Source: Naegleria gruberi (Eukaryota). From it: a stretch of 43,759 nucleotides of DNA. The stretch lies in assembly GCA_000004985.1 (NCBI GenBank), contig GG738949.1, one strand, 5' to 3'. Numbering within the stretch: the first letter of the stretch is position 1; each line of letters begins with the position of its first letter. Shown here one piece after another: positions 16,701 through 36,370 of the stretch. The notes below the pieces were generated by a model. That model made no database searches. It worked only from the letters and a program-made list of their open reading frames with translations, and was not told the DNA's origin. A program made the position numbers and the translations under genes.

Positions 16701-19700
16701 NNNNNNNNNNNNNNNNNNNNNNNNNNNNNNNNNNNNNNNNNNNNNNNNNNNNNNNNNNNNNNNNNNNNNNNNNNNNNNNNNNNNNNNNNNNNNNNNNNNN
16801 NNNNNNNNNNNNNNNNNNNNNNNNNNNNNNNNNNNNNNNNNNNNNNNNNNNNNNNNNNNNNNNNNNNNNNNNNNNNNNNNNNNNNNNNNNNNNNNNNNNN
16901 NNNNNNNNNNNNNNNNNNNNNNNNNNNNNNNNNNNNNNNNNNNNNNNNNNNNNNNNNNNNNNNNNNNNNNNNNNNNNNNNNNNNNNNNNNNNNNNNNNNN
17001 NNNNNNNNNNNNNNNNNNNNNNNNNNNNNNNNNNNNNNNNNNNNNNNNNNNNNNNNNNNNNNNNNNNNNNNNNNNNNNNNNNNNNNNNNNNNNNNNNNNN
17101 NNNNNNNNNNNNNNNNNNNNNNNNNNNNNNNNNNNNNNNNNNNNNNNNNNNNNNNNNNNNNNNNNNNNNNNNNNNNNNNNNNNNNNNNNNNNNNNNNNNN
17201 NNNNNNNNNNNNNNNNNNNNNNNNNNNNNNNNNNNNNNNNNNNNNNNNNNNNNNNNNNNNNNNNNNNNNNNNNNNNNNNNNNNNNNNNNNNNNNNNNNNN
17301 NNNNNNNNNNNNNNNNNNNNNNNNNNNNNNNNNNNNNNNNNNNNNNNNNNNNNNNNNNNNNNNNNNNNNNNNNNNNNNNNNNNNNNNNNNNNNNNNNNNN
17401 NNNNNNNNNNNNNNNNNNNNNNNNNNNNNNNNNNNNNNNNNNNNNNNNNNNNNNNNNNNNNNNNNNNNNNNNNNNNNNNNNNNNNNNNNNNNNNNNNNNN
17501 NNNNNNNNNNNNNNNNNNNNNNNNNNNNNNNNNNNNNNNNNNNNNNNNNNNNNNNNNNNNNNNNNNNNNNNNNNNNNNNNNNNNNNNNNNNNNNNNNNNN
17601 NNNNNNNNNNNNNNNNNNNNNNNNNNNNNNNNNNNNNNNNNNNNNNNNNNNNNNNNNNNNNNNNNNNNNNNNNNNNNNNNNNNNNNNNNNNNNNNNNNNN
17701 NNNNNNNNNNNNNNNNNNNNNNNNNNNNNNNNNNNNNNNNNNNNNNNNNNNNNNNNNNNNNNNNNNNNNNNNNNNNNNNNNNNNNNNNNNNNNNNNNNNN
17801 NNNNNNNNNNNNNNNNNNNNNNNNNNNNNNNNNNNNNNNNNNNNNNNNNNNNNNNNNNNNNNNNNNNNNNNNNNNNNNNNNNNNNNNNNNNNNNNNNNNN
17901 NNNNNNNNNNNNNNNNNNNNNNNNNNNNNNNNNNNNNNNNNNNNNNNNNNNNNNNNNNNNNNNNNNNNNNNNNNNNNNNNNNNNNNNNNNNNNNNNNNNN
18001 NNNNNNNNNNNNNNNNNNNNNNNNNNNNNNNNNNNNNNNNNNNNNNNNNNNNNNNNNNNNNNNNNNNNNNNNNNNNNNNNNNNNNNNNNNNNNNNNNNNN
18101 NNNNNNNNNNNNNNNNNNNNNNNNNNNNNNNNNNNNNNNNNNNNNNNNNNNNNNNNNNNNNNNNNNNNNNNNNNNNNNNNNNNNNNNNNNNNNNNNNNNN
18201 NNNNNNNNNNNNNNNNNNNNNNNNNNNNNNNNNNNNNNNNNNNNNNNNNNNNNNNNNNNNNNNNNNNNNNNNNNNNNNNNNNNNNNNNNNNNNNNNNNNN
18301 NNNNNNNNNNNNNNNNNNNNNNNNNNNNNNNNNNNNNNNNNNNNNNNNNNNNNNNNNNNNNNNNNNNNNNNNNNNNNNNNNNNNNNNNNNNNNNNNNNNN
18401 NNNNNNNNNNNNNNNNNNNNNNNNNNNNNNNNNNNNNNNNNNNNNNNNNNNNNNNNNNNNNNNNNNNNNNNNNNNNNNNNNNNNNNNNNNNNNNNNNNNN
18501 NNNNNNNNNNNNNNNNNNNNNNNNNNNNNNNNNNNNNNNNNNNNNNNNNNNNNNNNNNNNNNNNNNNNNNNNNNNNNNNNNNNNNNNNNNNNNNNNNNNN
18601 NNNNNNNNNNNNNNNNNNNNNNNNNNNNNNNNNNNNNNNNNNNNNNNNNNNNNNNNNNNNNNNNNNNNNNNNNNNNNNNNNNNNNNNNNNNNNNNNNNNN
18701 NNNNNNNNNNNNNNNNNNNNNNNNNNNNNNNNNNNNNNNNNNNNNNNNNNNNNNNNNNNNNNNNNNNNNNNNNNNNNNNNNNNNNNNNNNNNNNNNNNNN
18801 NNNNNNNNNNNNNNNNNNNNNNNNNNNNNNNNNNNNNNNNNNNNNNNNNNNNNNNNNNNNNNNNNNNNNNNNNNNNNNNNNNNNNNNNNNNNNNNNNNNN
18901 NNNNNNNNNNNNNNNNNNNNNNNNNNNNNNNNNNNNNNNNNNNNNNNNNNNNNNNNNNNNNNNNNNNNNNNNNNNNNNNNNNNNNNNNNNNNNNNNNNNN
19001 NNNNNNNNNNNNNNNNNNNNNNNNNNNNNNNNNNNNNNNNNNNNNNNNNNNNNNNNNNNNNNNNNNNNNNNNNNNNNNNNNNNNNNNNNNNNNNNNNNNN
19101 NNNNNNNNNNNNNNNNNNNNNNNNNNNNNNNNNNNNNNNNNNNNNNNNNNNNNNNNNNNNNNNNNNNNNNNNNNNNNNNNNNNNNNNNNNNNNNNNNNNN
19201 NNNNNNNNNNNNNNNNNNNNNNNNNNNNNNNNNNNNNNNNNNNNNNNNNNNNNNNNNNNNNNNNNNNNNNNNNNNNNNNNNNNNNNNNNNNNNNNNNNNN
19301 NNNNNNNNNNNNNNNNNNNNNNNNNNNNNNNNNNNNNNNNNNNNNNNNNNNNNNNNNNNNNNNNNNNNNNNNNNNNNNNNNNNNNNNNNNNNNNNNNNNN
19401 NNNNNNNNNNNNNNNNNNNNNNNNNNNNNNNNNNNNNNNNNNNNNNNNNNNNNNNNNNNNNNNNNNNNNNNNNNNNNNNNNNNNNNNNNNNNNNNNNNNN
19501 NNNNNNNNNNNNNNNNNNNNNNNNNNNNNNNNNNNNNNNNNNNNNNNNNNNNNNNNNNNNNNNNNNNNNNNNNNNNNNNNNNNNNNNNNNNNNNNNNNNN
19601 NNNNNNNNNNNNNNNNNNNNNNNNNNNNNNNNNNNNNNNNNNNNNNNNNNNNNNNNNNNNNNNNNNNNNNNNNNNNNNNNNNNNNNNNNNNNNNNNNNNN

Positions 19701-22700
19701 NNNNNNNNNNNNNNNNNNNNNNNNNNNNNNNNNNNNNNNNNNNNNNNNNNNNNNNNNNNNNNNNNNNNNNNNNNNNNNNNNNNNNNNNNNNNNNNNNNNN
19801 NNNNNNNNNNNNNNNNNNNNNNNNNNNNNNNNNNNNNNNNNNNNNNNNNNNNNNNNNNNNNNNNNNNNNNNNNNNNNNNNNNNNNNNNNNNNNNNNNNNN
19901 NNNNNNNNNNNNNNNNNNNNNNNNNNNNNNNNNNNNNNNNNNNNNNNNNNNNNNNNNNNNNNNNNNNNNNNNNNNNNNNNNNNNNNNNNNNNNNNNNNNN
20001 NNNNNNNNNNNNNNNNNNNNNNNNNNNNNNNNNNNNNNNNNNNNNNNNNNNNNNNNNNNNNNNNNNNNNNNNNNNNNNNNNNNNNNNNNNNNNNNNNNNN
20101 NNNNNNNNNNNNNNNNNNNNNNNNNNNNNNNNNNNNNNNNNNNNNNNNNNNNNNNNNNNNNNNNNNNNNNNNNNNNNNNNNNNNNNNNNNNNNNNNNNNN
20201 NNNNNNNNNNNNNNNNNNNNNNNNNNNNNNNNNNNNNNNNNNNNNNNNNNNNNNNNNNNNNNNNNNNNNNNNNNNNNNNNNNNNNNNNNNNNNNNNNNNN
20301 NNNNNNNNNNNNNNNNNNNNNNNNNNNNNNNNNNNNNNNNNNNNNNNNNNNNNNNNNNNNNNNNNNNNNNNNNNNNNNNNNNNNNNNNNNNNNNNNNNNN
20401 NNNNNNNNNNNNNNNNNNNNNNNNNNNNNNNNNNNNNNNNNNNNNNNNNNNNNNNNNNNNNNNNNNNNNNNNNNNNNNNNNNNNNNNNNNNNNNNNNNNN
20501 NNNNNNNNNNNNNNNNNNNNNNNNNNNNNNNNNNNNNNNNNNNNNNNNNNNNNNNNNNNNNNNNNNNNNNNNNNNNNNNNNNNNNNNNNNNNNNNNNNNN
20601 NNNNNNNNNNNNNNNNNNNNNNNNNNNNNNNNNNNNNNNNNNNNNNNNNNNNNNNNNNNNNNNNNNNNNNNNNNNNNNNNNNNNNNNNNNNNNNNNNNNN
20701 NNNNNNNNNNNNNNNNNNNNNNNNNNNNNNNNNNNNNNNNNNNNNNNNNNNNNNNNNNNNNNNNNNNNNNNNNNNNNNNNNNNNNNNNNNNNNNNNNNNN
20801 NNNNNNNNNNNNNNNNNNNNNNNNNNNNNNNNNNNNNNNNNNNNNNNNNNNNNNNNNNNNNNNNNNNNNNNNNNNNNNNNNNNNNNNNNNNNNNNNNNNN
20901 NNNNNNNNNNNNNNNNNNNNNNNNNNNNNNNNNNNNNNNNNNNNNNNNNNNNNNNNNNNNNNNNNNNNNNNNNNNNNNNNNNNNNNNNNNNNNNNNNNNN
21001 NNNNNNNNNNNNNNNNNNNNNNNNNNNNNNNNNNNNNNNNNNNNNNNNNNNNNNNNNNNNNNNNNNNNNNNNNNNNNNNNNNNNNNNNNNNNNNNNNNNN
21101 NNNNNNNNNNNNNNNNNNNNNNNNNNNNNNNNNNNNNNNNNNNNNNNNNNNNNNNNNNNNNNNNNNNNNNNNNNNNNNNNNNNNNNNNNNNNNNNNNNNN
21201 NNNNNNNNNNNNNNNNNNNNNNNNNNNNNNNNNNNNNNNNNNNNNNNNNNNNNNNNNNNNNNNNNNNNNNNNNNNNNNNNNNNNNNNNNNNNNNNNNNNN
21301 NNNNNNNNNNNNNNNNNNNNNNNNNNNNNNNNNNNNNNNNNNNNNNNNNNNNNNNNNNNNNNNNNNNNNNNNNNNNNNNNNNNNNNNNNNNNNNNNNNNN
21401 NNNNNNNNNNNNNNNNNNNNNNNNNNNNNNNNNNNNNNNNNNNNNNNNNNNNNNNNNNNNNNNNNNNNNNNNNNNNNNNNNNNNNNNNNNNNNNNNNNNN
21501 NNNNNNNNNNNNNNNNNNNNNNNNNNNNNNNNNNNNNNNNNNNNNNNNNNNNNNNNNNNNNNNNNNNNNNNNNNNNNNNNNNNNNNNNNNNNNNNNNNNN
21601 NNNNNNNNNNNNNNNNNNNNNNNNNNNNNNNNNNNNNNNNNNNNNNNNNNNNNNNNNNNNNNNNNNNNNNNNNNNNNNNNNNNNNNNNNNNNNNNNNNNN
21701 NNNNNNNNNNNNNNNNNNNNNNNNNNNNNNNNNNNNNNNNNNNNNNNNNNNNNNNNNNNNNNNNNNNNNNNNNNNNNNNNNNNNNNNNNNNNNNNNNNNN
21801 NNNNNNNNNNNNNNNNNNNNNNNNNNNNNNNNNNNNNNNNNNNNNNNNNNNNNNNNNNNNNNNNNNNNNNNNNNNNNNNNNNNNNNNNNNNNNNNNNNNN
21901 NNNNNNNNNNNNNNNNNNNNNNNNNNNNNNNNNNNNNNNNNNNNNNNNNNNNNNNNNNNNNNNNNNNNNNNNNNNNNNNNNNNNNNNNNNNNNNNNNNNN
22001 NNNNNNNNNNNNNNNNNNNNNNNNNNNNNNNNNNNNNNNNNNNNNNNNNNNNNNNNNNNNNNNNNNNNNNNNNNNNNNNNNNNNNNNNNNNNNNNNNNNN
22101 NNNNNNNNNNNNNNNNNNNNNNNNNNNNNNNNNNNNNNNNNNNNNNNNNNNNNNNNNNNNNNNNNNNNNNNNNNNNNNNNNNNNNNNNNNNNNNNNNNNN
22201 NNNNNNNNNNNNNNNNNNNNNNNNNNNNNNNNNNNNNNNNNNNNNNNNNNNNNNNNNNNNNNNNNNNNNNNNNNNNNNNNNNNNNNNNNNNNNNNNNNNN
22301 NNNNNNNNNNNNNNNNNNNNNNNNNNNNNNNNNNNNNNNNNNNNNNNNNNNNNNNNNNNNNNNNNNNNNNNNNNNNNNNNNNNNNNNNNNNNNNNNNNNN
22401 NNNNNNNNNNNNNNNNNNNNNNNNNNNNNNNNNNNNNNNNNNNNNNNNNNNNNNNNNNNNNNNNNNNNNNNNNNNNNNNNNNNNNNNNNNNNNNNNNNNN
22501 NNNNNNNNNNNNNNNNNNNNNNNNNNNNNNNNNNNNNNNNNNNNNNNNNNNNNNNNNNNNNNNNNNNNNNNNNNNNNNNNNNNNNNNNNNNNNNNNNNNN
22601 NNNNNNNNNNNNNNNNNNNNNNNNNNNNNNNNNNNNNNNNNNNNNNNNNNNNNNNNNNNNNNNNNNNNNNNNNNNNNNNNNNNNNNNNNNNNNNNNNNNN

Positions 22701-24116
22701 NNNNNNNNNNNNNNNNNNNNNNNNNNNNNNNNNNNNNNNNNNNNNNNNNNNNNNNNNNNNNNNNNNNNNNNNNNNNNNNNNNNNNNNNNNNNNNNNNNNN
22801 NNNNNNNNNNNNNNNNNNNNNNNNNNNNNNNNNNNNNNNNNNNNNNNNNNNNNNNNNNNNNNNNNNNNNNNNNNNNNNNNNNNNNNNNNNNNNNNNNNNN
22901 NNNNNNNNNNNNNNNNNNNNNNNNNNNNNNNNNNNNNNNNNNNNNNNNNNNNNNNNNNNNNNNNNNNNNNNNNNNNNNNNNNNNNNNNNNNNNNNNNNNN
23001 NNNNNNNNNNNNNNNNNNNNNNNNNNNNNNNNNNNNNNNNNNNNNNNNNNNNNNNNNNNNNNNNNNNNNNNNNNNNNNNNNNNNNNNNNNNNNNNNNNNN
23101 NNNNNNNNNNNNNNNNNNNNNNNNNNNNNNNNNNNNNNNNNNNNNNNNNNNNNNNNNNNNNNNNNNNNNNNNNNNNNNNNNNNNNNNNNNNNNNNNNNNN
23201 NNNNNNNNNNNNNNNNNNNNNNNNNNNNNNNNNNNNNNNNNNNNNNNNNNNNNNNNNNNNNNNNNNNNNNNNNNNNNNNNNNNNNNNNNNNNNNNNNNNN
23301 NNNNNNNNNNNNNNNNNNNNNNNNNNNNNNNNNNNNNNNNNNNNNNNNNNNNNNNNNNNNNNNNNNNNNNNNNNNNNNNNNNNNNNNNNNNNNNNNNNNN
23401 NNNNNNNNNNNNNNNNNNNNNNNNNNNNNNNNNNNNNNNNNNNNNNNNNNNNNNNNNNNNNNNNNNNNNNNNNNNNNNNNNNNNNNNNNNNNNNNNNNNN
23501 NNNNNNNNNNNNNNNNNNNNNNNNNNNNNNNNNNNNNNNNNNNNNNNNNNNNNNNNNNNNNNNNNNNNNNNNNNNNNNNNNNNNNNNNNNNNNNNNNNNN
23601 NNNNNNNNNNNNNNNNNNNNNNNNNNNNNNNNNNNNNNNNNNNNNNNNNNNNNNNNNNNNNNNNNNNNNNNNNNNNNNNNNNNNNNNNNNNNNNNNNNNN
23701 NNNNNNNNNNNNNNNNNNNNNNNNNNNNNNNNNNNNNNNNNNNNNNNNNNNNNNNNNNNNNNNNNNNNNNNNNNNNNNNNNNNNNNNNNNNNNNNNNNNN
23801 NNNNNNNNNNNNNNNNNNNNNNNNNNNNNNNNNNNNNNNNNNNNNNNNNNNNNNNNNNNNNNNNNNNNNNNNNNNNNNNNNNNNNNNNNNNNNNNNNNNN
23901 NNNNNNNNNNNNNNNNNNNNNNNNNNNNNNNNNNNNNNNNNNNNNNNNNNNNNNNNNNNNNNNNNNNNNNNNNNNNNNNNNNNNNNNNNNNNNNNNNNNN
24001 NNNNNNNNNNNNNNNNNNNNNNNNNNNNNNNNNNNNNNNNNNNNNNNNNNNNNNNNNNNNNNNNNNNNNNNNNNNNNNNNNNNNNNNNNNNNNNNNNNNN
24101 NNNNNNNNNNNNNNNN
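10736..24116. other. Assembly gap (13,381 N)
   Basis: Run of N. All track ORFs of >4,000 aa are translations of this gap. Confidence 0.99.
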
Positions 24117-24699
24117 AATTTGAAATGTCAATTCCATTATATAGTAAGAATTCCCCACCAATGAATCCAAACTCTATTGTAAATGCATCAATAATTGCGT
24201 ATGCCTGTAAATTGCCACGAGTAGTGAACAATTGCTTGTCCTTTCCTTTCCATATCATTTCGAATCGATTTGCGTATTTGGAAAAATCGAAATTTGTTTC
24301 ATAGCTTCGCATAAGTCCATTAATTACAATCACCATTGTGAAATTATCCAATTTTTTACCTTGATTAATTATTTCTGCCAATTCATTGTTTGCTGCTTTT
24401 ACAATTTGACTCGGAGAGGAACATGGTTGATTCTCATCCCTACACGTTGCATTCAAATCATCAACATTAGGAAATTCAGAATCTAAATAATAAATAGCTG
24501 AATATGATGATGAATTAATTGTATTGTTGGCCATTACATATTGATGATGCTCTTGTTCTTGTGGTTGGAGTACTACTACTAATTCATTATTAGCTAATAT
24601 CGACTCGGAGTGTGCAATTATCATCATTATCATCATCATCATAATAATTAAAAGCCTAATAAATCTAAGACTCTCCGAAGAGGTGGTAATCTTGTGCAT
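24117..24699 (-). CDS. 5' portion (194 codons) of a gene encoding a protein with an N-terminal signal peptide or signal anchor. It is a paralog of the N-terminus of the receptor-like kinase at 31467-32174. The rest is in the gap.
   Basis: The first ATG is the complement of 24697-24699; the track start at 24711 is TTG. MHKITTSSESLRFIRLLIIMMMMIMMIIAHS is a hydrophobic leader. The motif NQPCSSPSQ and the block NFDFSKYANRFEMIW resemble PCSTPSQPC and ADYSPFIRINPFKMEISF in the 32174 gene. Confidence 0.5.
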
Positions 24700-24975
24700 T
24701 TTGTTTTTCAATTTTTGAATTTGGTTATCCGTCGGAAGCCTTCATATTCTCTTTCTCTCTCTAGCTGTTGTGTATTAAGATGGATTCAATAGATTATCTG
24801 ATAATTTCTTGAAGTTATCTTAAATTGTAATAGAATTTGTGCTTTTTTGAAATTTTTATTTTTTAATTTTATTTGATGATTCGGAAAGTTTTTTTAATGT
24901 TGCAAATTACTGCCTTAATTAGCCTTGAAAACTTTGAAAGTTCTCCTGTCAGAGCACGTCAACCCATCAAAAAAA
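24700..24975. promoter_or_regulatory. Divergent intergenic region between the minus-strand gene (start 24699) and the plus-strand START-like gene (start 24976)
   Basis: 276 bp of AT-rich non-coding sequence flanked by two outward-facing ATGs. It contains a (ct)n tract at 24750-24760 and an A-run directly before the 24976 ATG. No specific motifs could be assigned. Confidence 0.3.
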
Positions 24976-26252
24976 ATGTCACAAGATAAAGAAGACTCTC
25001 TCACTGAATGGTTGAACAATATTGTTGTTGCTATTGGTGAAGAAGACATTCCAAACAATAATCTTTTGCCTGTCACTGTCAGTGAGACATCAACAAACCA
25101 AACAGTTCCTGCAGGTGATAAGAAGGTTAGAAAGCGAAAGGAAACTAAACAACCACCATTCCCAAATATTCAATCAAGAGACATTTCTGACTTCACTAAC
25201 AGGCTAGTTTCGAATAATAACAAGTTGAGCAGCAAGGACCAACAACAAATAGATTTGTTAAAGATTGGGAAGGGTTTCGTTCAACACACCACTTGGACTA
25301 CTTCATCTGTTCTTAATGGGAAGAGAAAAGAAACTCTAGAAAATATTAGAAACTCAAAGAAGAAGAAGAAAGAAACAGTTGACNNNNNNNNNNNNNNNNN
25401 NNNNNNNNNNNNNNNNNNNNNNNNNNNNNNNNNNNNNNNNNNNNNNNNNNNNNNNTTACCATCGCAGAAGATACACCAGATTGGGAGTTGATTTTAGATA
25501 AGAGTGATGAATACCAACTATTCATTTCCAAAACACCGTATGTCTTCAATCAGGATACCATGATTGGCATGCAGTTAGCAAAAGCTTTCATCTATCTCCC
25601 TTACAATATCGATGACGTTTGGGCCTGTTGGTGGAATACTGACATTATGGAAAAGTTTGATCCAATGGTATTTAAGGGAAGGAAGCCACCTCCTCAACAA
25701 GATGATGCCTCAACAACAAAATCCAGTTTTTCTTACCAGAAACCAAATGGTGGTTATGCTCATTCTTTGAATGTCAGTAATATTAATTTCTTTCCAGTGA
25801 AGAGAACTCTTCACTATACATCAACGATGGTGAGAGATTCAGAGATTGATGCAATCTTGTTGATTGGACATTCGTCTGAGAATTTGAAAGAGGATTTTCC
25901 TGATGAGGAGATTGAACACAAATTATTGCAAGGATTCTTTTATTGGAGTTTGTTTAAGGTAAATGACAAGTTGACCAGAGTAATGATTTCAACGTATAGT
26001 GAAATTAACATTCCAATATTTTCGTCATTCTTTTACAAACAAATGGCGATTAAAAGGACGAAAAGTATAAGGAAATCAATGATGAAAGAATTGGATCGAT
26101 TAACAGATTGTGGACGAAAGAAAATGGATACTAGTTCATTTGTGGATGAATTGAATTTTAGGAAGTGTTTGGAAGAAAATTGTGTGAAATATCCGAATCG
26201 ATCATGGTATAAGGAATGGCTGGCTCTAAAGCAAAATCCAACTCAATTTTAA
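24976..26252 (+). CDS. START-like (StAR-related lipid-transfer / Bet v1 fold) domain protein, ~420 aa, spanning a 72-N gap
   Basis: ATG at 24976 in an 'aaaaaaaATG' context. The N-terminal part is low-complexity and basic. After the gap, DWELILDKSDEYQLFISK...AKAFIYLPYNIDDVWACWWNTDIMEKFDPMVFKG matches the opening of a START domain (Trp in the first beta strand, conserved W/D). A helical tail FFYKQMAIKRTKSIRKSMMKEL follows. Stop at 26250-26252. The two ORF pieces are in different frames only because of the gap length. Confidence 0.5.
25384..25455. other. Assembly gap (72 N)
   Basis: Run of N. Confidence 0.99.
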
Positions 26253-26409
26253 AAGAATTCCACTTTACAGAAAACTTAACATTTTGATGTGTTATTTTAA
26301 TTCATAAGAATGGAAGAACACTTATTGAGCTTGTCACAAATTTCTGCAAATGAAGGTCTTTCAACATCCTTGTCCCAACATTTTGTCATTATTTCACACA
26401 ACTCTTTCA
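26005..26409. repeat. Segmental duplication, copy A (~405 bp up to the gap). It carries the 3' 82 codons of the START-like gene, a 45-bp intergenic spacer and a minus-strand kinase 3' fragment.
   Basis: Direct repeat of 28051-28454 with about 9 mismatches and indels (~98% identity). Homology begins exactly at ttaacattcc (26005 / 28051). Confidence 0.85.
26297..26409 (-). pseudogene. Duplicated 3' fragment of the TKL kinase gene (last 37 codons ...KELCEIMTKCWDKDVERPSFAEICDKLNKCSSILMN*), truncated at the gap
   Basis: Identical at protein level to 28342-28452. Beyond the 50-N gap the minus strand no longer reads as kinase and is antisense to the LRR gene. Confidence 0.45.
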
Positions 26410-26459
26410 NNNNNNNNNNNNNNNNNNNNNNNNNNNNNNNNNNNNNNNNNNNNNNNNNN
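26410..26459. other. Assembly gap (50 N)
   Basis: Run of N. Confidence 0.99.
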
Positions 26460-27017
26460 GATGAGCTATATTGCTCAGCAGTTAATTCTACAGCTCGTTT
26501 ACAAGAATTAATTGTGGAAAAACCACTTGATTCCTCCCTCACAACACTTGATTTATCACAATGTTATGTTGGAGAAGTTTTTTTGAAAGCTCTTTCTTTG
26601 GGAGAATTCAAGAAATTGACTAAACTCTTACTATCTAATAATGAAATTGGAAATGAGGAAGTTCTGCTATTGGGAAAACTTTACATGCCGAATCTAGCTC
26701 ATCTCAATCTTGATGATAACCTAATTGGATTGGAAGGCGCTAACATCATTTCCAATTTTACTAATTTTCCTCATTTAGAATTTCTTTCCTGTAGAAAATA
26801 TCCCGCAACAAAACACAAAACCTTTGAAAGTTATTCATTGAATAATTTTCTTGAGGATTGCAGGGAGGAATTGGGAGAGGAATTAGAGGAGGAAGAAGAA
26901 GATTGTGAAGAGGATTATTATGGAGGTTTACGTAATTCGAAAGGAAAGGAAATTAGTTTTGTATCGTCGTTTGTTAGCTTTACTTGGACCAAAAGTGATT
27001 ATGTCTATGTCTATTAA
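26460..27017 (+). CDS. RNI-type leucine-rich-repeat protein, C-terminal 185 codons with an acidic tail; the 5' end is in a gap or unresolved
   Basis: LTTLDLSQCYVGEVFLKALSLGEFKKLTKLLLSNNEIGNEEVLLLGKLYMPNLAHLNLDDNLIGLEGANIISNF shows 28-29-residue RNI-like LRRs (L..L.L..N.IG.EG). An EELGEELEEEEEDCEED acidic stretch follows. Stop at 27015-27017. There is no in-frame Met before the repeats. Confidence 0.5.
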   Translation, partial: DELYCSAVNSTARLQELIVEKPLDSSLTTLDLSQCYVGEVFLKALSLGEFKKLTKLLLSNNEIGNEEVLLLGKLYMPNLAHLNLDDNLIGLEGANIISNFTNFPHLEFLSCRKYPATKHKTFESYSLNNFLEDCREELGEELEEEEEDCEEDYYGGLRNSKGKEISFVSSFVSFTWTKSDYVYVY

Positions 27018-27288
27018 TGAGCCATGGATTTCACTATGGAATTAGTTTGCATGTTCATTGAAACAGGAAAATTGAATTTTCAAAAATGTTTACAAGATAA
27101 TTATTTGAAATTTCCAATAATCTTGAATGAGATACACTACACGAAAATATCTTATGATTTCGAATAGCAACTGACTACTATTTTGGTAATACAGAACCGC
27201 AATAATGAACTTGCCAATTATTGTAACGTCGTTTAAATAAACCGACCAGTGCCACTACATTAAAGAGAGACATTTGACTTTAAAAAAA

Positions 27289-27897
27289 ATGAGACAAGAC
27301 AAGACAACATTCAACCCAGATAATTATTGTCTCGTCTATGAAGAGGTAATGACATGCCAAGAAACAAGAAATATCTTTAAAGAATTCTTGAAGGAAAACA
27401 TGGCGGAAGAACCACTTCTTTATTTGGACGAATGTGAAAAGTATAAAGTGGAATATGCCAAGTTGAAAGAGAAATTTCACGGTTTATCTTTGATGGTTAA
27501 AAGAAGTAGTAGTGTAGGAAATGTTTCTGATTTGGGAAACGAGACAAGTGGCAAGGAATGGGATAAAAATCAGTTGACTAAATTATTTGTGAATTTAAAA
27601 GGAATTATTGATGAGTTTATTGTGGAAGAGGCAACTAAGGAGTTGAATTTGAGTTCGGTTAGGCAGTGGACGATAATGGAGTGGCAGATAATAGAAGCAA
27701 TGATGAACGGATTCGAACAGGATTCGTCCAATTTGGAACTTTCGAATAATTTGTATAGGAAACTGGATATTAATGTGCTGTTTGAAAAGGTAGATTTAGT
27801 GGTTATGATAGATTTGAAAATGGATCAATTTCCTCGATTTATTCGTTCAAATTTAGCTCGAAAATTTCTATTAGAAAAGGGAGAACATTTCACATGA
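27289..27897 (+). CDS. RGS (regulator of G-protein signalling) domain protein, 202 aa
   Basis: ATG at 27289-27291 in an 'aaaaaaaATG' context. FNPDNYCLVYEEVMTCQETRNIFKEFLKENMAEEPLLYLDECEKYK matches the RGS N-terminal helix pattern (F..FL..E..EE.L.F....E.Y). The C-terminal MIDLKMDQFPRFIRSNLARKFL matches the RGS end (M..D.FPRF..S..Y). Confidence 0.8.
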   Translation: MRQDKTTFNPDNYCLVYEEVMTCQETRNIFKEFLKENMAEEPLLYLDECEKYKVEYAKLKEKFHGLSLMVKRSSSVGNVSDLGNETSGKEWDKNQLTKLFVNLKGIIDEFIVEEATKELNLSSVRQWTIMEWQIIEAMMNGFEQDSSNLELSNNLYRKLDINVLFEKVDLVVMIDLKMDQFPRFIRSNLARKFLLEKGEHFT

Positions 27898-28031
27898 ACT
27901 GTGGCAATCGATATTTCGAAAGGTTTCAAAGTTGATTTGAGATTTAAACCAAAAGATTTGAAAGATAAGGAAATTAATGACAATCACATTTATTTTGGTA
28001 TGTTAAATTGCAAAATTTTCATTGTTAACCA

Positions 28032-28298
28032 TTTTTAGGATTAACCATCGTTAACATTCCAATATTTTCGTCATTCTTTTACAAACAAATGGCGATGAAA
28101 AGGACGAAAAGTATAAGGAAATCAATGATGAAAGAATTGGATCGATTAACAGATTATGGACGAAAGAAAATGGATACTAGTTCATTTGTGGATGAATTGA
28201 ATTTTAGAAAGTGTTTGGAAGAAAATTGTGTGAAATATCCGAATCGATCATGGTATAAGGAGTGGCTGGCTCTAAAACAAAATCCAACTCAATTTTAA
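28032..28298 (+). pseudogene. Duplicated 3' fragment of the START-like gene (copy B), with no 5' part
   Basis: Codes ...NIPIFSSFFYKQMAMKRTKSIRKSMMKELDRLTDYGRKKMDTSSFVDELNFRKCLEENCVKYPNRSWYKEWLALKQNPTQF*, about 97% identical to the end of 24976-26252. The frame opens only 7 codons upstream of the duplication boundary. Confidence 0.5.
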
Positions 28299-28545
28299 AG
28301 AATTCCAATTTACAGAAAACTTAACATTTTGAAGTGTTATTTTAATTCATAAGAATGGAAGAACACTTATTGAGCTTGTCACAAATTTCTGCAAATGAAG
28401 GTCTTTCAACGTCCTTGTCCCAACATTTTGTCATTATTTCACACAACTCTTTCACAACAAGGGCAAGCTTCATCTCTGAATTACGAGAAGATCCAAAAAT
28501 TCCTCCCTTCTCATTTTCCATCAAAAAGGAATTGACATATTCCTT
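28051..28545. repeat. Segmental duplication, copy B. It continues into the 2.9-kb gap.
   Basis: See copy A. The spacing between copies is 2,046 bp, so the duplicated unit may include the LRR and RGS genes. Confidence 0.85.
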
Positions 28546-31500
28546 NNNNNNNNNNNNNNNNNNNNNNNNNNNNNNNNNNNNNNNNNNNNNNNNNNNNNNN
28601 NNNNNNNNNNNNNNNNNNNNNNNNNNNNNNNNNNNNNNNNNNNNNNNNNNNNNNNNNNNNNNNNNNNNNNNNNNNNNNNNNNNNNNNNNNNNNNNNNNNN
28701 NNNNNNNNNNNNNNNNNNNNNNNNNNNNNNNNNNNNNNNNNNNNNNNNNNNNNNNNNNNNNNNNNNNNNNNNNNNNNNNNNNNNNNNNNNNNNNNNNNNN
28801 NNNNNNNNNNNNNNNNNNNNNNNNNNNNNNNNNNNNNNNNNNNNNNNNNNNNNNNNNNNNNNNNNNNNNNNNNNNNNNNNNNNNNNNNNNNNNNNNNNNN
28901 NNNNNNNNNNNNNNNNNNNNNNNNNNNNNNNNNNNNNNNNNNNNNNNNNNNNNNNNNNNNNNNNNNNNNNNNNNNNNNNNNNNNNNNNNNNNNNNNNNNN
29001 NNNNNNNNNNNNNNNNNNNNNNNNNNNNNNNNNNNNNNNNNNNNNNNNNNNNNNNNNNNNNNNNNNNNNNNNNNNNNNNNNNNNNNNNNNNNNNNNNNNN
29101 NNNNNNNNNNNNNNNNNNNNNNNNNNNNNNNNNNNNNNNNNNNNNNNNNNNNNNNNNNNNNNNNNNNNNNNNNNNNNNNNNNNNNNNNNNNNNNNNNNNN
29201 NNNNNNNNNNNNNNNNNNNNNNNNNNNNNNNNNNNNNNNNNNNNNNNNNNNNNNNNNNNNNNNNNNNNNNNNNNNNNNNNNNNNNNNNNNNNNNNNNNNN
29301 NNNNNNNNNNNNNNNNNNNNNNNNNNNNNNNNNNNNNNNNNNNNNNNNNNNNNNNNNNNNNNNNNNNNNNNNNNNNNNNNNNNNNNNNNNNNNNNNNNNN
29401 NNNNNNNNNNNNNNNNNNNNNNNNNNNNNNNNNNNNNNNNNNNNNNNNNNNNNNNNNNNNNNNNNNNNNNNNNNNNNNNNNNNNNNNNNNNNNNNNNNNN
29501 NNNNNNNNNNNNNNNNNNNNNNNNNNNNNNNNNNNNNNNNNNNNNNNNNNNNNNNNNNNNNNNNNNNNNNNNNNNNNNNNNNNNNNNNNNNNNNNNNNNN
29601 NNNNNNNNNNNNNNNNNNNNNNNNNNNNNNNNNNNNNNNNNNNNNNNNNNNNNNNNNNNNNNNNNNNNNNNNNNNNNNNNNNNNNNNNNNNNNNNNNNNN
29701 NNNNNNNNNNNNNNNNNNNNNNNNNNNNNNNNNNNNNNNNNNNNNNNNNNNNNNNNNNNNNNNNNNNNNNNNNNNNNNNNNNNNNNNNNNNNNNNNNNNN
29801 NNNNNNNNNNNNNNNNNNNNNNNNNNNNNNNNNNNNNNNNNNNNNNNNNNNNNNNNNNNNNNNNNNNNNNNNNNNNNNNNNNNNNNNNNNNNNNNNNNNN
29901 NNNNNNNNNNNNNNNNNNNNNNNNNNNNNNNNNNNNNNNNNNNNNNNNNNNNNNNNNNNNNNNNNNNNNNNNNNNNNNNNNNNNNNNNNNNNNNNNNNNN
30001 NNNNNNNNNNNNNNNNNNNNNNNNNNNNNNNNNNNNNNNNNNNNNNNNNNNNNNNNNNNNNNNNNNNNNNNNNNNNNNNNNNNNNNNNNNNNNNNNNNNN
30101 NNNNNNNNNNNNNNNNNNNNNNNNNNNNNNNNNNNNNNNNNNNNNNNNNNNNNNNNNNNNNNNNNNNNNNNNNNNNNNNNNNNNNNNNNNNNNNNNNNNN
30201 NNNNNNNNNNNNNNNNNNNNNNNNNNNNNNNNNNNNNNNNNNNNNNNNNNNNNNNNNNNNNNNNNNNNNNNNNNNNNNNNNNNNNNNNNNNNNNNNNNNN
30301 NNNNNNNNNNNNNNNNNNNNNNNNNNNNNNNNNNNNNNNNNNNNNNNNNNNNNNNNNNNNNNNNNNNNNNNNNNNNNNNNNNNNNNNNNNNNNNNNNNNN
30401 NNNNNNNNNNNNNNNNNNNNNNNNNNNNNNNNNNNNNNNNNNNNNNNNNNNNNNNNNNNNNNNNNNNNNNNNNNNNNNNNNNNNNNNNNNNNNNNNNNNN
30501 NNNNNNNNNNNNNNNNNNNNNNNNNNNNNNNNNNNNNNNNNNNNNNNNNNNNNNNNNNNNNNNNNNNNNNNNNNNNNNNNNNNNNNNNNNNNNNNNNNNN
30601 NNNNNNNNNNNNNNNNNNNNNNNNNNNNNNNNNNNNNNNNNNNNNNNNNNNNNNNNNNNNNNNNNNNNNNNNNNNNNNNNNNNNNNNNNNNNNNNNNNNN
30701 NNNNNNNNNNNNNNNNNNNNNNNNNNNNNNNNNNNNNNNNNNNNNNNNNNNNNNNNNNNNNNNNNNNNNNNNNNNNNNNNNNNNNNNNNNNNNNNNNNNN
30801 NNNNNNNNNNNNNNNNNNNNNNNNNNNNNNNNNNNNNNNNNNNNNNNNNNNNNNNNNNNNNNNNNNNNNNNNNNNNNNNNNNNNNNNNNNNNNNNNNNNN
30901 NNNNNNNNNNNNNNNNNNNNNNNNNNNNNNNNNNNNNNNNNNNNNNNNNNNNNNNNNNNNNNNNNNNNNNNNNNNNNNNNNNNNNNNNNNNNNNNNNNNN
31001 NNNNNNNNNNNNNNNNNNNNNNNNNNNNNNNNNNNNNNNNNNNNNNNNNNNNNNNNNNNNNNNNNNNNNNNNNNNNNNNNNNNNNNNNNNNNNNNNNNNN
31101 NNNNNNNNNNNNNNNNNNNNNNNNNNNNNNNNNNNNNNNNNNNNNNNNNNNNNNNNNNNNNNNNNNNNNNNNNNNNNNNNNNNNNNNNNNNNNNNNNNNN
31201 NNNNNNNNNNNNNNNNNNNNNNNNNNNNNNNNNNNNNNNNNNNNNNNNNNNNNNNNNNNNNNNNNNNNNNNNNNNNNNNNNNNNNNNNNNNNNNNNNNNN
31301 NNNNNNNNNNNNNNNNNNNNNNNNNNNNNNNNNNNNNNNNNNNNNNNNNNNNNNNNNNNNNNNNNNNNNNNNNNNNNNNNNNNNNNNNNNNNNNNNNNNN
31401 NNNNNNNNNNNNNNNNNNNNNNNNNNNNNNNNNNNNNNNNNNNNNNNNNNNNNNNNNNNNNNNNNNTTCATCTCCACCTCTTCAAATATAACTCTTGTTG

Positions 31501-32174
31501 TGTAAATACTCGAAACATAATCATTCTCTACTGCAATCACAGCATTAACATCCCAATTTACAAAGGCAATATTGGTGAATGATATTTCCATTTTGAAAGG
31601 ATTGATTCGTATAAAGGGAGAATAATCAGCACATGAAATGAAAGTCTTTGACAATCCATAAAAGTTGGCAATAATCTTGCTTTGGATAGCCTCTGAATTG
31701 TTATAGTATGGCAAGTCAATTGCACAATTATTATTATTACTACCATCACTCACATCTATATTATTCAATAAATAAATATTTAATTCTTGTTCTTCCGCTA
31801 TTATTACATGATAATAATTTAAATAGTATTATTATTATTAATTTACATATGATGATCATTAATTTACATTGAAAATCAACAAAATTACTATTCACATATT
31901 TAAAACCAAACTACCTACCTGTACTGGTCGTATTGAAAAGCACACTCCACTTCTCCAGTACATATTTTAGTGAGTTACACGGCTGAGAAGGGGTAGAACA
32001 GGGAAAGAAGTTATTGCTACTGCTGCTACTAGCCTTCGGATCAATGTAGACACTACTCGTTATCTTGGCAATTGTGGTGTTGATGGTCAAAATGTTGAGA
32101 AACAATAGCACCACGAGGATAGAAATCAATCGCCACACCTCATGATCCCTTCGGGTCATCATTGAATGTCTCAT
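28342..32174 (-). CDS. Receptor-like TKL-family protein kinase gene. Exon 1 is 31919-32174 (signal peptide/anchor). The intron is 31756-31918. Exon 2 is 31467-31755 and runs into the 2.9-kb gap. The C-terminal kinase end is 28342-28545.
   Basis: Exon 1 (MRHSMMTRRDHEVWRLISILVVLLFLNILTIN...NTTST) ends at G|GTAGGT. The next ORF has no in-frame ATG; its 'M' at 31768 is TTG. That ORF begins immediately after ...aatatAG, and the splice phase fits (g+at = Asp). The C-terminus ...LALVVKELCEIMTKCWDKDVERPSFAEICDKL is the canonical end of a Tyr-kinase-like catalytic domain (LM..CW...P..RPSF.EI). The middle of the gene is unsequenced, so linkage of the two ends is inferred. Confidence 0.5.
28546..31466. 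other. Assembly gap (2,921 N)
   Basis: Run of N. Confidence 0.99.
31756..31918 (-). other. Spliceosomal intron (163 nt, GTAGGT...TATAG, >85% AT)
   Basis: Donor GTAGGT directly after an ORF that otherwise hits TAG. The acceptor is a pyrimidine/AT-rich tail plus AG directly before an ATG-less ORF. The phase-1 junction keeps the frame. Confidence 0.55.
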
Positions 32175-34552: not shown

Positions 34553-36370
34553 TTATTTCTTCTTTGGTATTTCACCATTAGATGAGGAAGTTCTCTTTCT
34601 CTTCTTTTCATAGGTTGAGTTATTCGTTTCAGTAGTGCTTAGTTTTGATTCATTTTTTTCTGGATTGGAATAAGCATCACGTATGGAAGGAAAGAAATAT
34701 GATCTATAATCTTGTGTATCGACTATATCTGTAATTCCAAGTAATGCCAAGCATTCTCTTGTGGTAGGTCTTTCCTTTCTTTCTATGGCCACCATTTGTT
34801 TAAGCATGTCAAATAGCATACTACCCTTATTGGGCTCTAGCTCGTGGCATTTGATTGAAATTGTTTGCCATATTTCATCAGCAGTATTTTCCAACCGTTT
34901 CTTATCTATATCATTTTCTAATATCAATTCAATAAAAACTAAACCAAGAGAGTAGATATCAGTTTTTGGATGAATAAAGTTTTTCCCTGTGGATTCCTTT
35001 TCAGGAGCATTGTAAGAAGAGGTTCCAGCAGTTGACTGTATCCACAAGTTTGCTAATTTGCAAGTATCACCATCTTCAATGTCAAAACGCTTGGCTAGTT
35101 CAAAATCAATGAATTTACAAAAACAGTTTGGGCCTTTTTTTTCGTGGGCATCTGTTTCCTTAATAACTAATGATTTTAAATGATCCTCCTCTAATATTAT
35201 AATATTACTAGGTTTAATGTCATTGTGAATTATCTTTCTTGAGTGAATGTGGTCAATTTCAAGCAGCAGTTGAGAAATAATGTGCAATTTTTCTTGATGT
35301 GATCGTTTGTTAAAAGTATTGAGCTCATCTCCTGCAATTGATATCTCGATATGTTCTTTACAAACCACATCATTCACAGTAACTCTGTCATGAAGAAGAA
35401 ATATATTTCCAATATCAAACCTTTCTGGTTTTTCTGAATGGAAAATCTTTACAAACACTGGTTGAGAGGAATGATCAAGCACACCATAGAACATGTCTTT
35501 GGTAGCAGTACCTCTTCCTTGACCAGTACTTATCTCGACAAGATACTCCTCAAGAGTGACAGTTGTTGTAAGCACTGTGTCTAATGATGTTGTGAGATGA
35601 ACCACCAACTTATCACCTTGTGAAATATCATATCCACTGACAATAGAACTTTCCATTCTCTTTCTTCCCATAGACGCTTTGGTAATTGTGTCGATAAGAA
35701 TGTTCTCTTCAAAAATAGCTTTTCTGCTTGCCTCTAGTAAGAATGAAATAAATGTGTCAAGTAATTGTTTCTCCTCTGTCGTTGAAGGGTCAAGTGGAAA
35801 CATCCCAACATTAAATAATTGATATTTGTATCTTTTCTTGATACGTGAAGTTTGTGGAACAAAAGCTTTAATTCCCAGCACACGAACAAACCTCTTCTCT
35901 GTCAGTAATCCATAGGTCACCAGTTTATCGATTTGGATTGCATGTTTTTCAGAGGGCTTTATGTTTTTGAGTAAAGTGCCATGAACCATTCTTATTAGAG
36001 CCACTACCTTCAAGAAATCAGGGTGAGCAGTCTCGAAGTCTACCTTGTCCTCATGCCCAAACTTTAGACGAACGTCTTTCTCATTCTTTAATTCTAATAC
36101 AGAAAAGTTATCAAGTGAAATAGTGCCCTGCAGTAAGTTTGCCACTTCCTTGCTGAGATATCTCGAGTTTTTTATCAAATTGCTGATAGAAACATTTCTT
36201 ATTTGTTCTGAGCTCAATAATGTTTGGTTAAAAAACTTACTCATTAATTTTGAAGCCGTAGAGAGTAGGTAGTTGTAATAGCTTGTGGTATTTAGTGTTA
36301 TTGGTATCCTCTCCCAAAGAATGCGTTTTGGTTGGATGTAAGCAATCGGATAAAAGTTGAAAAGCTGCAC
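34553..36370 (-). CDS. Protein kinase (non-RD, divergent motifs), at least 605 aa. The true 5' end probably extends upstream.
   Basis: Glycine loop STGQGRGTATKD, beta-3 Lys VFVKIF, catalytic loop HNDIKPSN (HRD to HND), DFE in place of DFG, APE motif SSYNAPE. The track start at 36370 is GTG preceded by TGA; the first in-frame ATG is 42 codons in. ORF 36237-36574 in another frame is open up to the gap and overlaps by 134 nt. Confidence 0.75.
   Translation of the reverse strand: MQLFNFYPIAYIQPKRILWERIPITLNTTSYYNYLLSTASKLMSKFFNQTLLSSEQIRNVSISNLIKNSRYLSKEVANLLQGTISLDNFSVLELKNEKDVRLKFGHEDKVDFETAHPDFLKVVALIRMVHGTLLKNIKPSEKHAIQIDKLVTYGLLTEKRFVRVLGIKAFVPQTSRIKKRYKYQLFNVGMFPLDPSTTEEKQLLDTFISFLLEASRKAIFEENILIDTITKASMGRKRMESSIVSGYDISQGDKLVVHLTTSLDTVLTTTVTLEEYLVEISTGQGRGTATKDMFYGVLDHSSQPVFVKIFHSEKPERFDIGNIFLLHDRVTVNDVVCKEHIEISIAGDELNTFNKRSHQEKLHIISQLLLEIDHIHSRKIIHNDIKPSNIIILEEDHLKSLVIKETDAHEKKGPNCFCKFIDFELAKRFDIEDGDTCKLANLWIQSTAGTSSYNAPEKESTGKNFIHPKTDIYSLGLVFIELILENDIDKKRLENTADEIWQTISIKCHELEPNKGSMLFDMLKQMVAIERKERPTTRECLALLGITDIVDTQDYRSYFFPSIRDAYSNPEKNESKLSTTETNNSTYEKKRKRTSSSNGEIPKKK

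What the first reader, a model, noticed from the sequence alone, without database searches (positions are those of the whole stretch)
24117..32174. Two neighbouring genes share a secreted N-terminal module; one is a receptor-like TKL kinase
The N-terminus encoded at 24117-24699 and the two 5' exons at 31467-32174 both have a hydrophobic leader. They also share a near-identical motif, PCSSPSQ versus PCSTPSQ, followed by similar Tyr/Phe-rich blocks: NFDFSKYANRFEMIW versus ADYSPFIRINPFKMEISF. The 32174 gene plausibly ends in the kinase C-terminus at 28342-28545, giving an extracellular-domain-plus-kinase architecture. The 24699 gene's downstream sequence is lost in a 13.4-kb gap. This points to a small local family of receptor-like proteins that has been reshaped by the duplication described above. 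The shared module is not one I can name.
Basis: partly seen in the sequence, partly recalled or inferred. Interest (0 to 1): 0.5.

Follow-up and report, generated by a model that had tools for sequence, protein, structure and literature searches.

The report
Fragments of beta-helix receptor-like kinase genes
Two neighbouring gene starts in an AT-rich protist genome encode secreted N-termini; one clearly belongs to a receptor kinase family with a beta-helix outer domain, while the link between the two genes is only a short motif and the link to the kinase end cannot be tested because the sequence in between is missing.

Summary
They are two N-termini with hydrophobic leaders, A at 24118-24699(-) and B at 32174-31919 plus 31797-31467(-), and a TK/TKL-type kinase C-terminus at 28345-28545(-).

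The claimed shared module is not supported as described. A versus B gives only the 7-mer, and a Smith-Waterman shuffle test gives p=0.13-0.17. Downstream of the motif there is no similarity (z<=0.1).

Gene A has one real homolog, P0001 on metagenome contig L001 (E=4e-8 in 1.84 billion proteins; pairwise 2e-15). Reconstructed, it is a 1048-aa protein: leader, N-cap, PMP-repeat right-handed beta-helix, TM helix and a complete C-terminal TK/TKL kinase.

C-x5-PC occurs only twice in the window's six-frame ORFs, in A and in B. Profile support for B is weak (shuffle p=0.0125).

Whether B joins the kinase tail across the 2921-N gap cannot be tested. A second, 98%-identical kinase-tail copy at 26300-26409 shows the locus is duplicated or poorly assembled.

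Verdict: ordinary draft-assembly fragments of receptor-like TKL kinase genes, a known kind of gene.

The parts
24118..24699 (-). Gene A, 5' end (194 codons; ATG at 24699). It encodes a hydrophobic leader (about residues 13-29), an N-cap motif YLD-x12-C86-x5-P92-C93, a predicted cap helix and the first beta-strands. The ORF continues into the 13,381-N run.
   Evidence: ORF and translation. Hydropathy. Homology to P0001 residues 36-157: E=4e-8 library-wide and 2e-15 pairwise, 37% identity. Four N-x-S/T sequons.
31919..32174 (-). Gene B exon 1 (ATG at 32174). It encodes a hydrophobic leader (about residues 15-31) and the motif YID-x13-C59-x5-P65-C66.
   Evidence: Motif register from hhalign. The C-x5-PC motif is unique to A and B in the window.
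31798..31918 (-). Inferred intron of gene B (121 nt, GTAGGT...TAG, phase 1, very AT-rich).
   Evidence: Read directly from the sequence. Exon 1 hits a stop 2 codons past the donor, and the exon 2 frame is open from 31828 to the gap. There is no RNA evidence.
31467..31797 (-). Gene B exon 2 (110 codons, open into the 2921-N run). It is orphan sequence with no detectable homolog.
   Evidence: no hits; no loci; no similarity to A, P0001 or the PMP profile; AF2 pLDDT 33.5, uninformative.
28342..28545 (-). Kinase tail K2: the last 67 codons plus stop of a TK/TKL-type kinase (subdomain XI, ...CWDKDVERPSFAEI...). Only 13 residues follow the domain.
   Evidence: Pfam PK_Tyr_Ser-Thr positions 228-258/258, E=0.0014. 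PDB best hit KSR1, E=0.023. Match to the L001 kinase tail: 28 bits, E=3e-5 pairwise.
26297..26409 (-). Kinase tail K1: a second copy of the same C-terminus (36/36 aa identical), cut off by a 50-N run. No kinase-coding sequence follows on the far side of that run.
   Evidence: tblastn. Repeat families D1/D2. Alignment showing 9 differences in about 405 nt. ORF list for 26460-27014.
28546..31466 (.). 2921-N run that would have to hold the rest of the ectodomain, the TM helix and most of the kinase domain if B and K2 are one gene.
10736..24116 (.). 13,381-N run that hides the rest of gene A.

Best explanation
The region holds draft-assembly fragments of at least two type-I surface-receptor genes on the minus strand of an AT-rich, intron-containing protist genome. 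I infer that the organism is amoeba-like.

Gene A (24699 downward) is the 5' end of a receptor-like kinase of the P0001/L001 type. Its proposed parts and how they would work are:
- A signal peptide targets the protein to the ER.
- A short N-cap follows: a beta-strand ending in Y-[IL]-D, a probable disulfide loop C-x5-P-C, then an amphipathic helix. It closes the N-terminal end of a right-handed parallel beta-helix.
- The beta-helix is built from PMP-like (FxxN / GGA[ILV]) rungs and forms the ligand- or surface-binding ectodomain.
- One TM helix links it to a C-terminal TK/TKL kinase, which relays binding by phosphorylation.

Gene B (32174 downward) starts with the same leader-plus-cap motif and then diverges completely. 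It is most simply a distant paralog, possibly the same gene as kinase tail K2 at 28345-28545.

What is shown:
- the leaders;
- the cap motif in A, B and P0001;
- homology of A to P0001;
- the full architecture of the L001 protein;
- the kinase-type tails.

What is inferred:
- that A still carries a TM helix and a kinase inside the gap;
- that B is homologous rather than convergent;
- that B and K2 are one gene;
- the disulfide and the cap function;
- any ligand.
For: A to P0001: the only true hit among 1.84e9 representatives, E=4e-8, 35% identity over query 25-143. BLASTP gives 2e-15 and 37% identity. The post-motif shuffle test gives z=15-17.

P0001/L001 architecture:
- Pfam Chlam_PMP scores 21.4 on P0001 and 20.9 on the rebuilt L001 protein, against a cutoff of 20.6. 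Beta_helix is sub-threshold. PK_Tyr_Ser-Thr covers 1-258/258 at E=1e-52 after reconstruction.
- A TM helix lies at about residues 672-697.
- The best PDB kinase matches are EGFR, CTR1, TAK1 and ABL.
- AF2 gives a confident beta-helix over about residues 170-500 (block-mean pLDDT about 80-96 outside a dip at about 261-310). The region aligned to gene A is modelled as strand 41-49, helix 71-85 and strands 96-104 and 121-128, at pLDDT 56-74.
- The top Foldseek PDB matches are nearly all right-handed beta-helix proteins, though weakly (best E=4.6e-3).

B cap motif:
- hhalign of the A+P0001 profile against B gives E=1.6e-4 with leaders and E=0.013 without them, over 32 columns in the C-x5-PC register.
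- The shuffle test gives p=0.0125.
- The regex Y[IL]D.{5,15}C.{5}PC occurs in 2e-5 of composition-matched shuffles (the motif was defined post hoc).
- C-x5-PC is found only in A and B in 10,462 aa of six-frame ORF segments.

B to K2: same strand, and the 3830-nt span from ATG to stop compares with about 3.3 kb for L001. K2 matches the L001 tail at E=3e-5.

Precedent: receptor-type TKL kinases are documented in Dictyostelium, with 6 GDT and 3 DRK members (PMC1420674).
Against: Against A and B being related:
- A and B are not significantly similar pairwise.
- B has no similarity to A, P0001 or a 25-sequence PMP alignment after the motif.
- Leaderless hhalign probability is only 3%.
- The motif statistics are partly post hoc.
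- B has no homolog in any search, and AF2 on its exon 2 is uninformative.

Against the receptor-kinase architecture in the window:
- No PMP repeat, TM helix or kinase core is visible anywhere in the window itself. Everything between the N-termini and the tails is N.
- K2 matches Pfam below the gathering threshold.
- A second tail copy (K1) with no adjacent gene body shows that adjacency in this scaffold is not trustworthy.
- The family rests on one metagenome contig. Its kinase reconstruction needs two micro-exons that I inferred.
Confidence: 0.6

Rival explanations
1. A and B are unrelated secreted or membrane proteins. The leader is generic and the Cys motif is coincidence. B is a non-kinase secreted protein that ends inside the gap. 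K2 belongs to a separate kinase gene, receptor-type or cytosolic, whose 5' end also lies in the 2921-N run.
For: No significant A-B alignment. Leaderless hhalign probability is 3%. B has no homologs. Genes here are tightly packed: 179 nt separate the upstream gene's stop from B's ATG, and 50 nt separate convergent stops at 28295 and 28345. So 2.9 kb could hold the end of one gene and most of another.
Against: C-x5-PC occurs only in A and B in the window. In both it follows a leader, with Y[IL]D 12-13 residues upstream, and P0001 has the same arrangement at 11 residues. The profile shuffle test gives p=0.0125. Strand and span fit one L001-sized gene.
Confidence: 0.3
2. The apparent 'local family' is largely an assembly artefact. 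Allelic or collapsed-repeat contigs were scaffolded side by side, so the two kinase tails are one locus seen twice, and the order of A, K1, K2 and B does not reflect the chromosome.
For: A 405-nt block at 26005-26409 is 98% identical to 28051-28454 and ends exactly at a 50-N run. No kinase body follows on the other side. Seven N-runs of 50 to 13,381 nt break the window.
Against: The two copies differ at 9 positions, including 2 amino-acid changes. Copy 2 has a sharp left boundary inside otherwise unrelated sequence. That looks like a real partial duplication or two diverged haplotypes rather than a trivial double placement. This rival does not affect the A-P0001 homology.
Confidence: 0.25
3. 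Gene B is not spliced as inferred and encodes only a small secreted peptide of 88 aa, ending at the stop just past 31917. The downstream ORF at 31469-31828 would be a separate or non-coding feature.
For: The intron is inferred from sequence only. Exon 2 has no homolog and no confident fold.
Against: The GTAGGT donor and TAG acceptor join the two ORFs in frame. The 121-nt interval is far more AT-rich than its flanks. The 360-nt downstream frame is open right up to the gap in a genome where random ORFs of that length are uncommon.
Confidence: 0.1

Closest known systems
P0001 / L001: an unnamed protein on ENA metagenome contig ERZ929261 k127_300871, reconstructed here as 1048 aa
   Same: Gene A aligns to its residues 36-157 at 35-37% identity. 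The shared elements are YY[IL]DS, N-x-TC-x-D-x-N-x-PC, AAN[ND]EL, FDFS-x-Y-x-N-x-FE and W-x-G-x-D. The contig has similar GC (32%). The kinase lies at the extreme C-terminus, as in K2. K2 matches its tail at E=3e-5.
   Different: It comes from a different organism, with 40-49-nt introns against 121 nt here. In the window only the first 194 residues of A can be compared. A lacks the Cys109/Cys139 pair of P0001, whereas B has a similarly spaced pair (110/141). B matches only the cap motif.
Dictyostelium discoideum receptor-type TKL kinases (GDT family, 6 members; DRK family, rk1-3 / VSK)
   Same: The same overall logic: signal peptide, lineage-specific ectodomain, single TM helix and C-terminal TKL kinase. 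These are described as a lineage-specific expansion (PMC1420674).
   Different: No sequence similarity to them was detected. phmmer with gene A against 1.84e9 representatives returned only P0001. The P0001 ectodomain search returned no kinase-bearing protein other than itself. The GDT and DRK ectodomains are described as unique (or TIG in rk3), not as PMP/beta-helix domains. I could not fetch those proteins to compare them directly.
Chlamydial polymorphic membrane proteins and other PMP-repeat right-handed beta-helix surface proteins (Pfam PF02415, PF13229)
   Same: The ectodomain of the homolog P0001 carries FxxN/GGA[ILV] rungs. It matches Chlam_PMP just above the cutoff and folds as a beta-helix in AF2. 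The 23 other hits to it carry beta-helix-type domains, PF02415 in 21 of them. PMP passenger domains are known beta-helices (PMC10715098, PMC11166332).
   Different: Bacterial Pmps are autotransporter passengers with a beta-barrel. Here the helix is fused to a eukaryotic TM helix and kinase. None of the eight PMP-type hits whose sequences I read has the Y[IL]D...C-x5-PC cap. No PMP repeat is detectable in the window's visible A or B sequence.
Entamoeba histolytica transmembrane kinases (TMKs)
   Same: An amoebozoan expansion of single-pass receptor kinases related to TKLs (PMC10463195).
   Different: From my own knowledge, their ectodomains are CXXC/CXC-rich repeats, not beta-helices. This was not compared here.

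Membership tests
Receptor-like TKL kinase (type-I membrane kinase) | N-terminal signal peptide | tested here: met
   A charged n-region is followed by a 15-19 aa hydrophobic core in both A and B (Kyte-Doolittle 2.8-2.9). No dedicated signal-peptide predictor was available, so a signal anchor is not excluded.
Receptor-like TKL kinase (type-I membrane kinase) | Single TM helix between ectodomain and kinase | not testable with these tools
   It would lie in the N-runs 10736-24116 (A) or 28546-31466 (B). It is present in the homolog L001 at about residues 672-697.
Receptor-like TKL kinase (type-I membrane kinase) | Kinase domain on the same polypeptide as the secreted N-terminus | not testable with these tools
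   For B and K2 there is only same strand and a 3830-nt span. For A the rest is in the gap. Continuity is shown only for the homolog L001.
Receptor-like TKL kinase (type-I membrane kinase) | TKL-group catalytic domain | tested here: inconclusive
   Only subdomain XI is visible. Pfam PK_Tyr_Ser-Thr scores 18.5 bits against a cutoff of 23.1. The best PDB hit is KSR1, a TKL, at E=0.023. The CW...RPSF motif is shared by the TK and TKL groups. No catalytic loop is available in the window.
P0001/L001-type beta-helix receptor kinases (N-cap family defined here) | Significant sequence homology over the N-cap and first rungs (about 120 aa) | tested here: met
   This applies to gene A: E=4e-8 library-wide and 2e-15 pairwise.
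P0001/L001-type beta-helix receptor kinases (N-cap family defined here) | Gene B: the same homology | tested here: inconclusive
   Only the 32-column cap motif aligns (hhalign E=0.013, probability 3%, shuffle p=0.0125). The post-motif region gives z<=0.1. The motif is unique to A and B in the window.
PMP-repeat / right-handed beta-helix proteins (PF02415, PF13229) | FxxN and GGA[ILV] repeats detectable by the Pfam models | tested here: not met
   Neither A nor B gives a PF02415 or PF13229 hit at E<=10. B versus the PMP alignment gives nothing. The feature is met only in the homolog P0001, downstream of the part that aligns to A. So for the window it is an inference about what lies in the gap.
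Dictyostelium GDT / DRK receptor kinases | Sequence similarity of the ectodomain to the gdt or drk domain | tested here: inconclusive
   Exhaustive phmmer with A found no such protein. Word-seeded searches with A, B and the P0001 ectodomain found none. I could not confirm that those proteins are in the libraries, and I could not compare them directly.

The most novel reading that the evidence does not exclude
A, P0001 and perhaps B define a previously undescribed family of protist receptor kinases. In this family the ectodomain is a PMP-type right-handed beta-helix closed by a conserved disulfide-loop-plus-helix N-cap (Y[IL]D-x11-13-C-x5-PC). In this genome the family would be undergoing local duplication and rapid ectodomain divergence, an adhesin-like bacterial fold recruited as the sensor of a eukaryotic kinase.
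Probability: 0.4. Interest if true: 0.4.

Novelty: new member of a known kind. Interest (0 to 1): 0.25.

Why it matters
Receptor-type TKL kinases are how amoeba-like protists, which lack classical receptor tyrosine kinases, are thought to sense their surroundings. Their ectodomains are mostly lineage-specific and uncharacterised.

A PMP/beta-helix ectodomain fused to a TKL kinase is a tidy example of an adhesin-type fold used as a receptor sensor. I did not find this architecture described in the papers searched, and the family is extremely sparse in public data: one metagenome contig.

What this window adds is small. It holds only two N-terminal fragments and two kinase tails, with all the informative parts hidden in gaps. 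It is useful mainly as a pointer to re-sequence the locus.

Tried and rejected
Homolog and locus searches that found nothing:
- Word-seeded homolog searches with B and with A.
- Exact-product look-ups of three neighbouring ORFs, tried in the hope of recovering the unmasked contig. None is on record.
- Metagenome scans with B and with the A+P0001 alignment.
- GTDB genome scans with B and with the A+P0001 alignment.
- A paper search for PRJEB11402, to learn the source of L001.

- Only A could therefore be searched exhaustively. B never had an exhaustive search.

Analyses that were uninformative:
- The search with the P0001 ectodomain returned only generic PMP/beta-helix proteins. The eight whose sequences I read lack the cap, and none of the 23 carries a kinase.
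- hhalign of B against the 25-sequence PMP alignment found nothing.
- AF2 on B exon 2 alone gave pLDDT 33.5.
- Foldseek of the P0001 model against the PDB gave only weak beta-helix matches (best E=4.6e-3).
- tRNA and Rfam scans of the window were empty.

Ideas rejected:
It cannot coexist with the C-x5-PC register that P0001 supports. It would also make the YxD-to-motif spacing 19 versus 12 residues instead of 12 versus 13.
- The Cys110/Cys141 (B) versus Cys109/Cys139 (P0001) spacing coincidence and the attractive three-way MAFFT alignment as evidence of homology. The shuffle tests give z<=0.

Full report
**What the window is.** The 43.8-kb window is AT-rich (about 30-36% GC in sequenced blocks) and is broken by seven N-runs of 50 to 13,381 nt. 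Its ORFs are eukaryotic in character:
- an intact piggyBac-type transposase;
- a teneurin-like NHL+EGF transmembrane protein;
- an Exo_endo_phos protein;
- RGS and LRR proteins;
- a Pkinase gene.

At least one short AT-rich GT..AG intron is needed to join open frames. There are no tRNA or Rfam features. None of three complete neighbouring ORFs is on record as a called gene product, and neither N-terminus finds even itself in the 5.8-billion-protein collection. So this is an unannotated draft genome. I infer an amoeba-like protist, but I could not identify it.

**Checking the observation.**
- Gene A is a single ORF from the ATG at 24699 down to 24118, where it runs into the 13.4-kb N-run.
- Gene B starts at 32174. 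Its first exon must end at 31919, because the frame stops two codons later. A GTAGGT...TAG interval of 121 nt joins it in phase 1 to an ORF that stays open to the 2921-N run at 31467.
- Both proteins begin with a charged stretch and a 15-19-residue hydrophobic core.
- Both carry N-x-S/T sequons.
- The 67 codons before the stop at 28342-28344 match the end of the Tyr/Ser-Thr kinase model (E=0.0014, below the curated cutoff). In the PDB they best match the C-lobe of the TKL kinase KSR1, weakly (E=0.023).

**The similarity between A and B does not hold up as described.**
- BLASTP returns the 7-mer PCSSPSQ/PCSTPSQ and nothing else (E=0.012 for one comparison).
- When A is searched against the whole translated window, that match has E about 5 and ranks among random hits.
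- The Smith-Waterman score is unexceptional against 2000 shuffles (p=0.13-0.17).
- The 'Tyr/Phe-rich blocks' do not align. Downstream of the Cys motif, B versus A gives z=-0.3 and 0.1.
- Pfam recognises nothing in either N-terminus.

**What gene A is.** One exhaustive HMMER search was available. One was low-complexity junk. The other was P0001 (E=4e-8, 35% identity, query 25-143 to target 36-157), with pairwise E=2e-15.

P0001 lies on a 3.8-kb ENA metagenome contig, L001, with 32% GC. The called product stops at an intron. I reconstructed the gene with four very short GTAAGT..AG introns (47, 45, 40 and 49 nt). This includes two inferred micro-exons that restore the GT-LL-YIAPE motif. The result is a 1048-aa protein whose kinase domain matches Pfam PK_Tyr_Ser-Thr end to end (1-258/258, E=1e-52).

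Its layout is:
- a leader;
- the region homologous to gene A;
- a beta-helix with FxxN/GGA[ILV] rungs (Chlam_PMP scores 21.4 on P0001 and 20.9 on the rebuilt protein against a cutoff of 20.6, and Beta_helix is sub-threshold);
- a TM helix at about residues 672-697;
- a TK/TKL-like kinase whose best PDB relatives are EGFR, CTR1, TAK1 and ABL, ending about nine residues before the stop.

AlphaFold2 with a 25-sequence alignment models a confident beta-helix over most of residues 170-500. At moderate confidence it models the gene-A-like region as a strand (YYID), a helix immediately after the PC motif, and then the first strands. The top Foldseek PDB matches are nearly all right-handed beta-helix proteins, though weak.

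So gene A is with good confidence the start of a receptor-like kinase with a PMP-type beta-helix ectodomain. That it retains the TM helix and kinase is an inference, because the rest is in the gap.

**What A and B really share.** P0001 serves as an arbiter of register.
- A reads YLD-x12-C-RDENQ-PC.
- P0001 reads YID-x11-C-TDVNL-PC.
- B reads YID-x13-C-STPSQ-PC.

A's 'PC' closes the loop, while B's 'PC' at residues 58-59 opens it. The 7-mer identity is therefore largely a coincidence overlapping a real, shorter motif.

Support for the motif is mixed.
- hhalign of the A+P0001 profile against B gives E=1.6e-4 and probability 51% with leaders.
- Without leaders it gives only E=0.013 and probability 3%, over 32 columns.
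- Against 240 shuffles of B the score has p=0.0125.
- C-x5-PC occurs in 0.35% of shuffles, and the full pattern in 2e-5. This pattern was defined post hoc.
- In all 10,462 residues of six-frame open segments in the window, C-x5-PC occurs exactly twice, in A and in B, each just after a leader and each with Y[IL]D 12-13 residues upstream.

I take this as moderate evidence that B starts with the same cap element. Beyond it, B is unrelated in sequence to A, to P0001 and to a PMP-family alignment. B has no homolog in any searchable collection, and its exon 2 gives no confident fold.

**The kinase end.**
- K2 (28345-28545) is on the same strand as B. The ATG-to-stop span of 3830 nt is what an L001-sized gene (about 3.3 kb) with a slightly longer ectodomain would need.
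- K2 also aligns to the L001 tail (28 bits, E=3e-5 pairwise).
- That is all that can be said. The TM helix, the catalytic core and the join itself would lie in the 2921-N run.
- Genes here are tightly packed, so one gene end and another gene start could also fit in that space.
- The tail is duplicated. Positions 26005-26409 are 98% identical to 28051-28454. This gives a second tail, K1 (26300-26409, 36/36 aa identical), which abuts a 50-N run. On the far side of that run there are plus-strand LRR and RGS genes and no kinase body.
- This is either a real partial duplication (copy 2 carries only the last ~80 codons of the neighbouring convergent gene) or allelic contigs scaffolded in tandem. Either way, adjacency in this scaffold is weak evidence.

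**Comparison with what is known.**
- Receptor-type TKL kinases with lineage-specific ectodomains are an established feature of Dictyostelium, with six GDT and three DRK members (PMC1420674).
- Other amoebozoans have them too (PMC10463195).
- PMP repeats are established as beta-helix rungs (PMC10715098, PMC11166332).
- I found no description of the PMP-helix-plus-TKL-kinase combination or of the cap motif in the papers searched. The family appears to consist of P0001 and gene A only. These searches are not exhaustive, however, and I could not compare directly with GDT/DRK ectodomains.

**Verdict.** The region contains fragments of receptor-like kinase genes, which is a known kind of gene. Gene A is the well-supported member, gene B a possible distant relative, and the B-kinase join is untested. 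Interest is low to moderate. The useful outcomes are the corrected motif register, the identification of the beta-helix receptor-kinase homolog, and the warning that the locus is duplicated or poorly assembled.

Noticed in passing
window 26005-26409 and 28051-28454: A 405-nt block is present twice at about 98% identity: 9 differences, including 2 amino-acid changes in the plus-strand ORF tail and 1 synonymous change in the kinase tail. It covers the convergent 3' ends of a 264-aa ORF and the kinase gene. The left edge is sharp, at TTAACATTCC. Copy 1 ends at a 50-N run with no kinase body beyond it. Copy 2 carries only the last ~80 codons of the plus-strand ORF.
   Followed up: partly
L001 3229-3374 (metagenome homolog): Restoring the kinase subdomain VIII motif GTLLYIAPE requires two micro-exons of 5 nt (ATATT) and 6 nt (GCACCT), separated by 45-, 40- and 49-nt GTAAGT..AG introns. 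With them the Pfam kinase model is matched end to end. This organism has unusually tiny introns.
   Followed up: partly
window 1220-2992 (-): An intact 590-aa piggyBac-type transposase ORF (DDE_Tnp_1_7, E=7e-44) with an N-terminal zinc-finger-like stretch. It may be an active or domesticated element. Its terminal repeats were not looked for.
   Followed up: no
window 5446-7176 (+): A teneurin-like surface protein: NHL repeats, an EGF domain, a Ser/Thr-rich stalk and a C-terminal TM helix. Its N-terminus is lost in the 1792-N run.
   Followed up: no
window N-runs 3652-5443, 10736-24116, 28546-31466: These three long N-runs begin exactly inside the bodies of putative surface-receptor genes (the NHL/EGF protein, gene A and gene B). 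This would be expected if those bodies are repetitive or recently duplicated and could not be assembled. It may also be coincidence or deliberate masking.
   Followed up: no
window 27241-27894 (+) and 43267-43572 (+): There is an RGS-domain ORF (Pfam RGS, E=2e-9). A second ORF near the window's end has a visibly similar RGS-like start (...YEELMNNPKGREIFQKYLK... versus ...YEEVMTCQETRNIFKEFLK...), suggesting another local paralog pair.
   Followed up: no
window 34556-36370 (-): A 605-aa open frame with a Ser/Thr protein kinase domain (Pkinase, E=5e-21; HNDIKPSN catalytic loop). An upstream open frame at 36240-36572 overlaps it in another frame, suggesting an intron. It is unrelated to the TKL tail.
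   Followed up: no
gene B residues 110 and 141; P0001 residues 109 and 139: B and P0001 each have a second Cys pair with nearly the same spacing (31 versus 30 residues) at nearly the same distance from the cap, while A has neither Cys. This is suggestive of a shared disulfide, but it is not supported by any alignment statistic (z<=0).
   Followed up: yes
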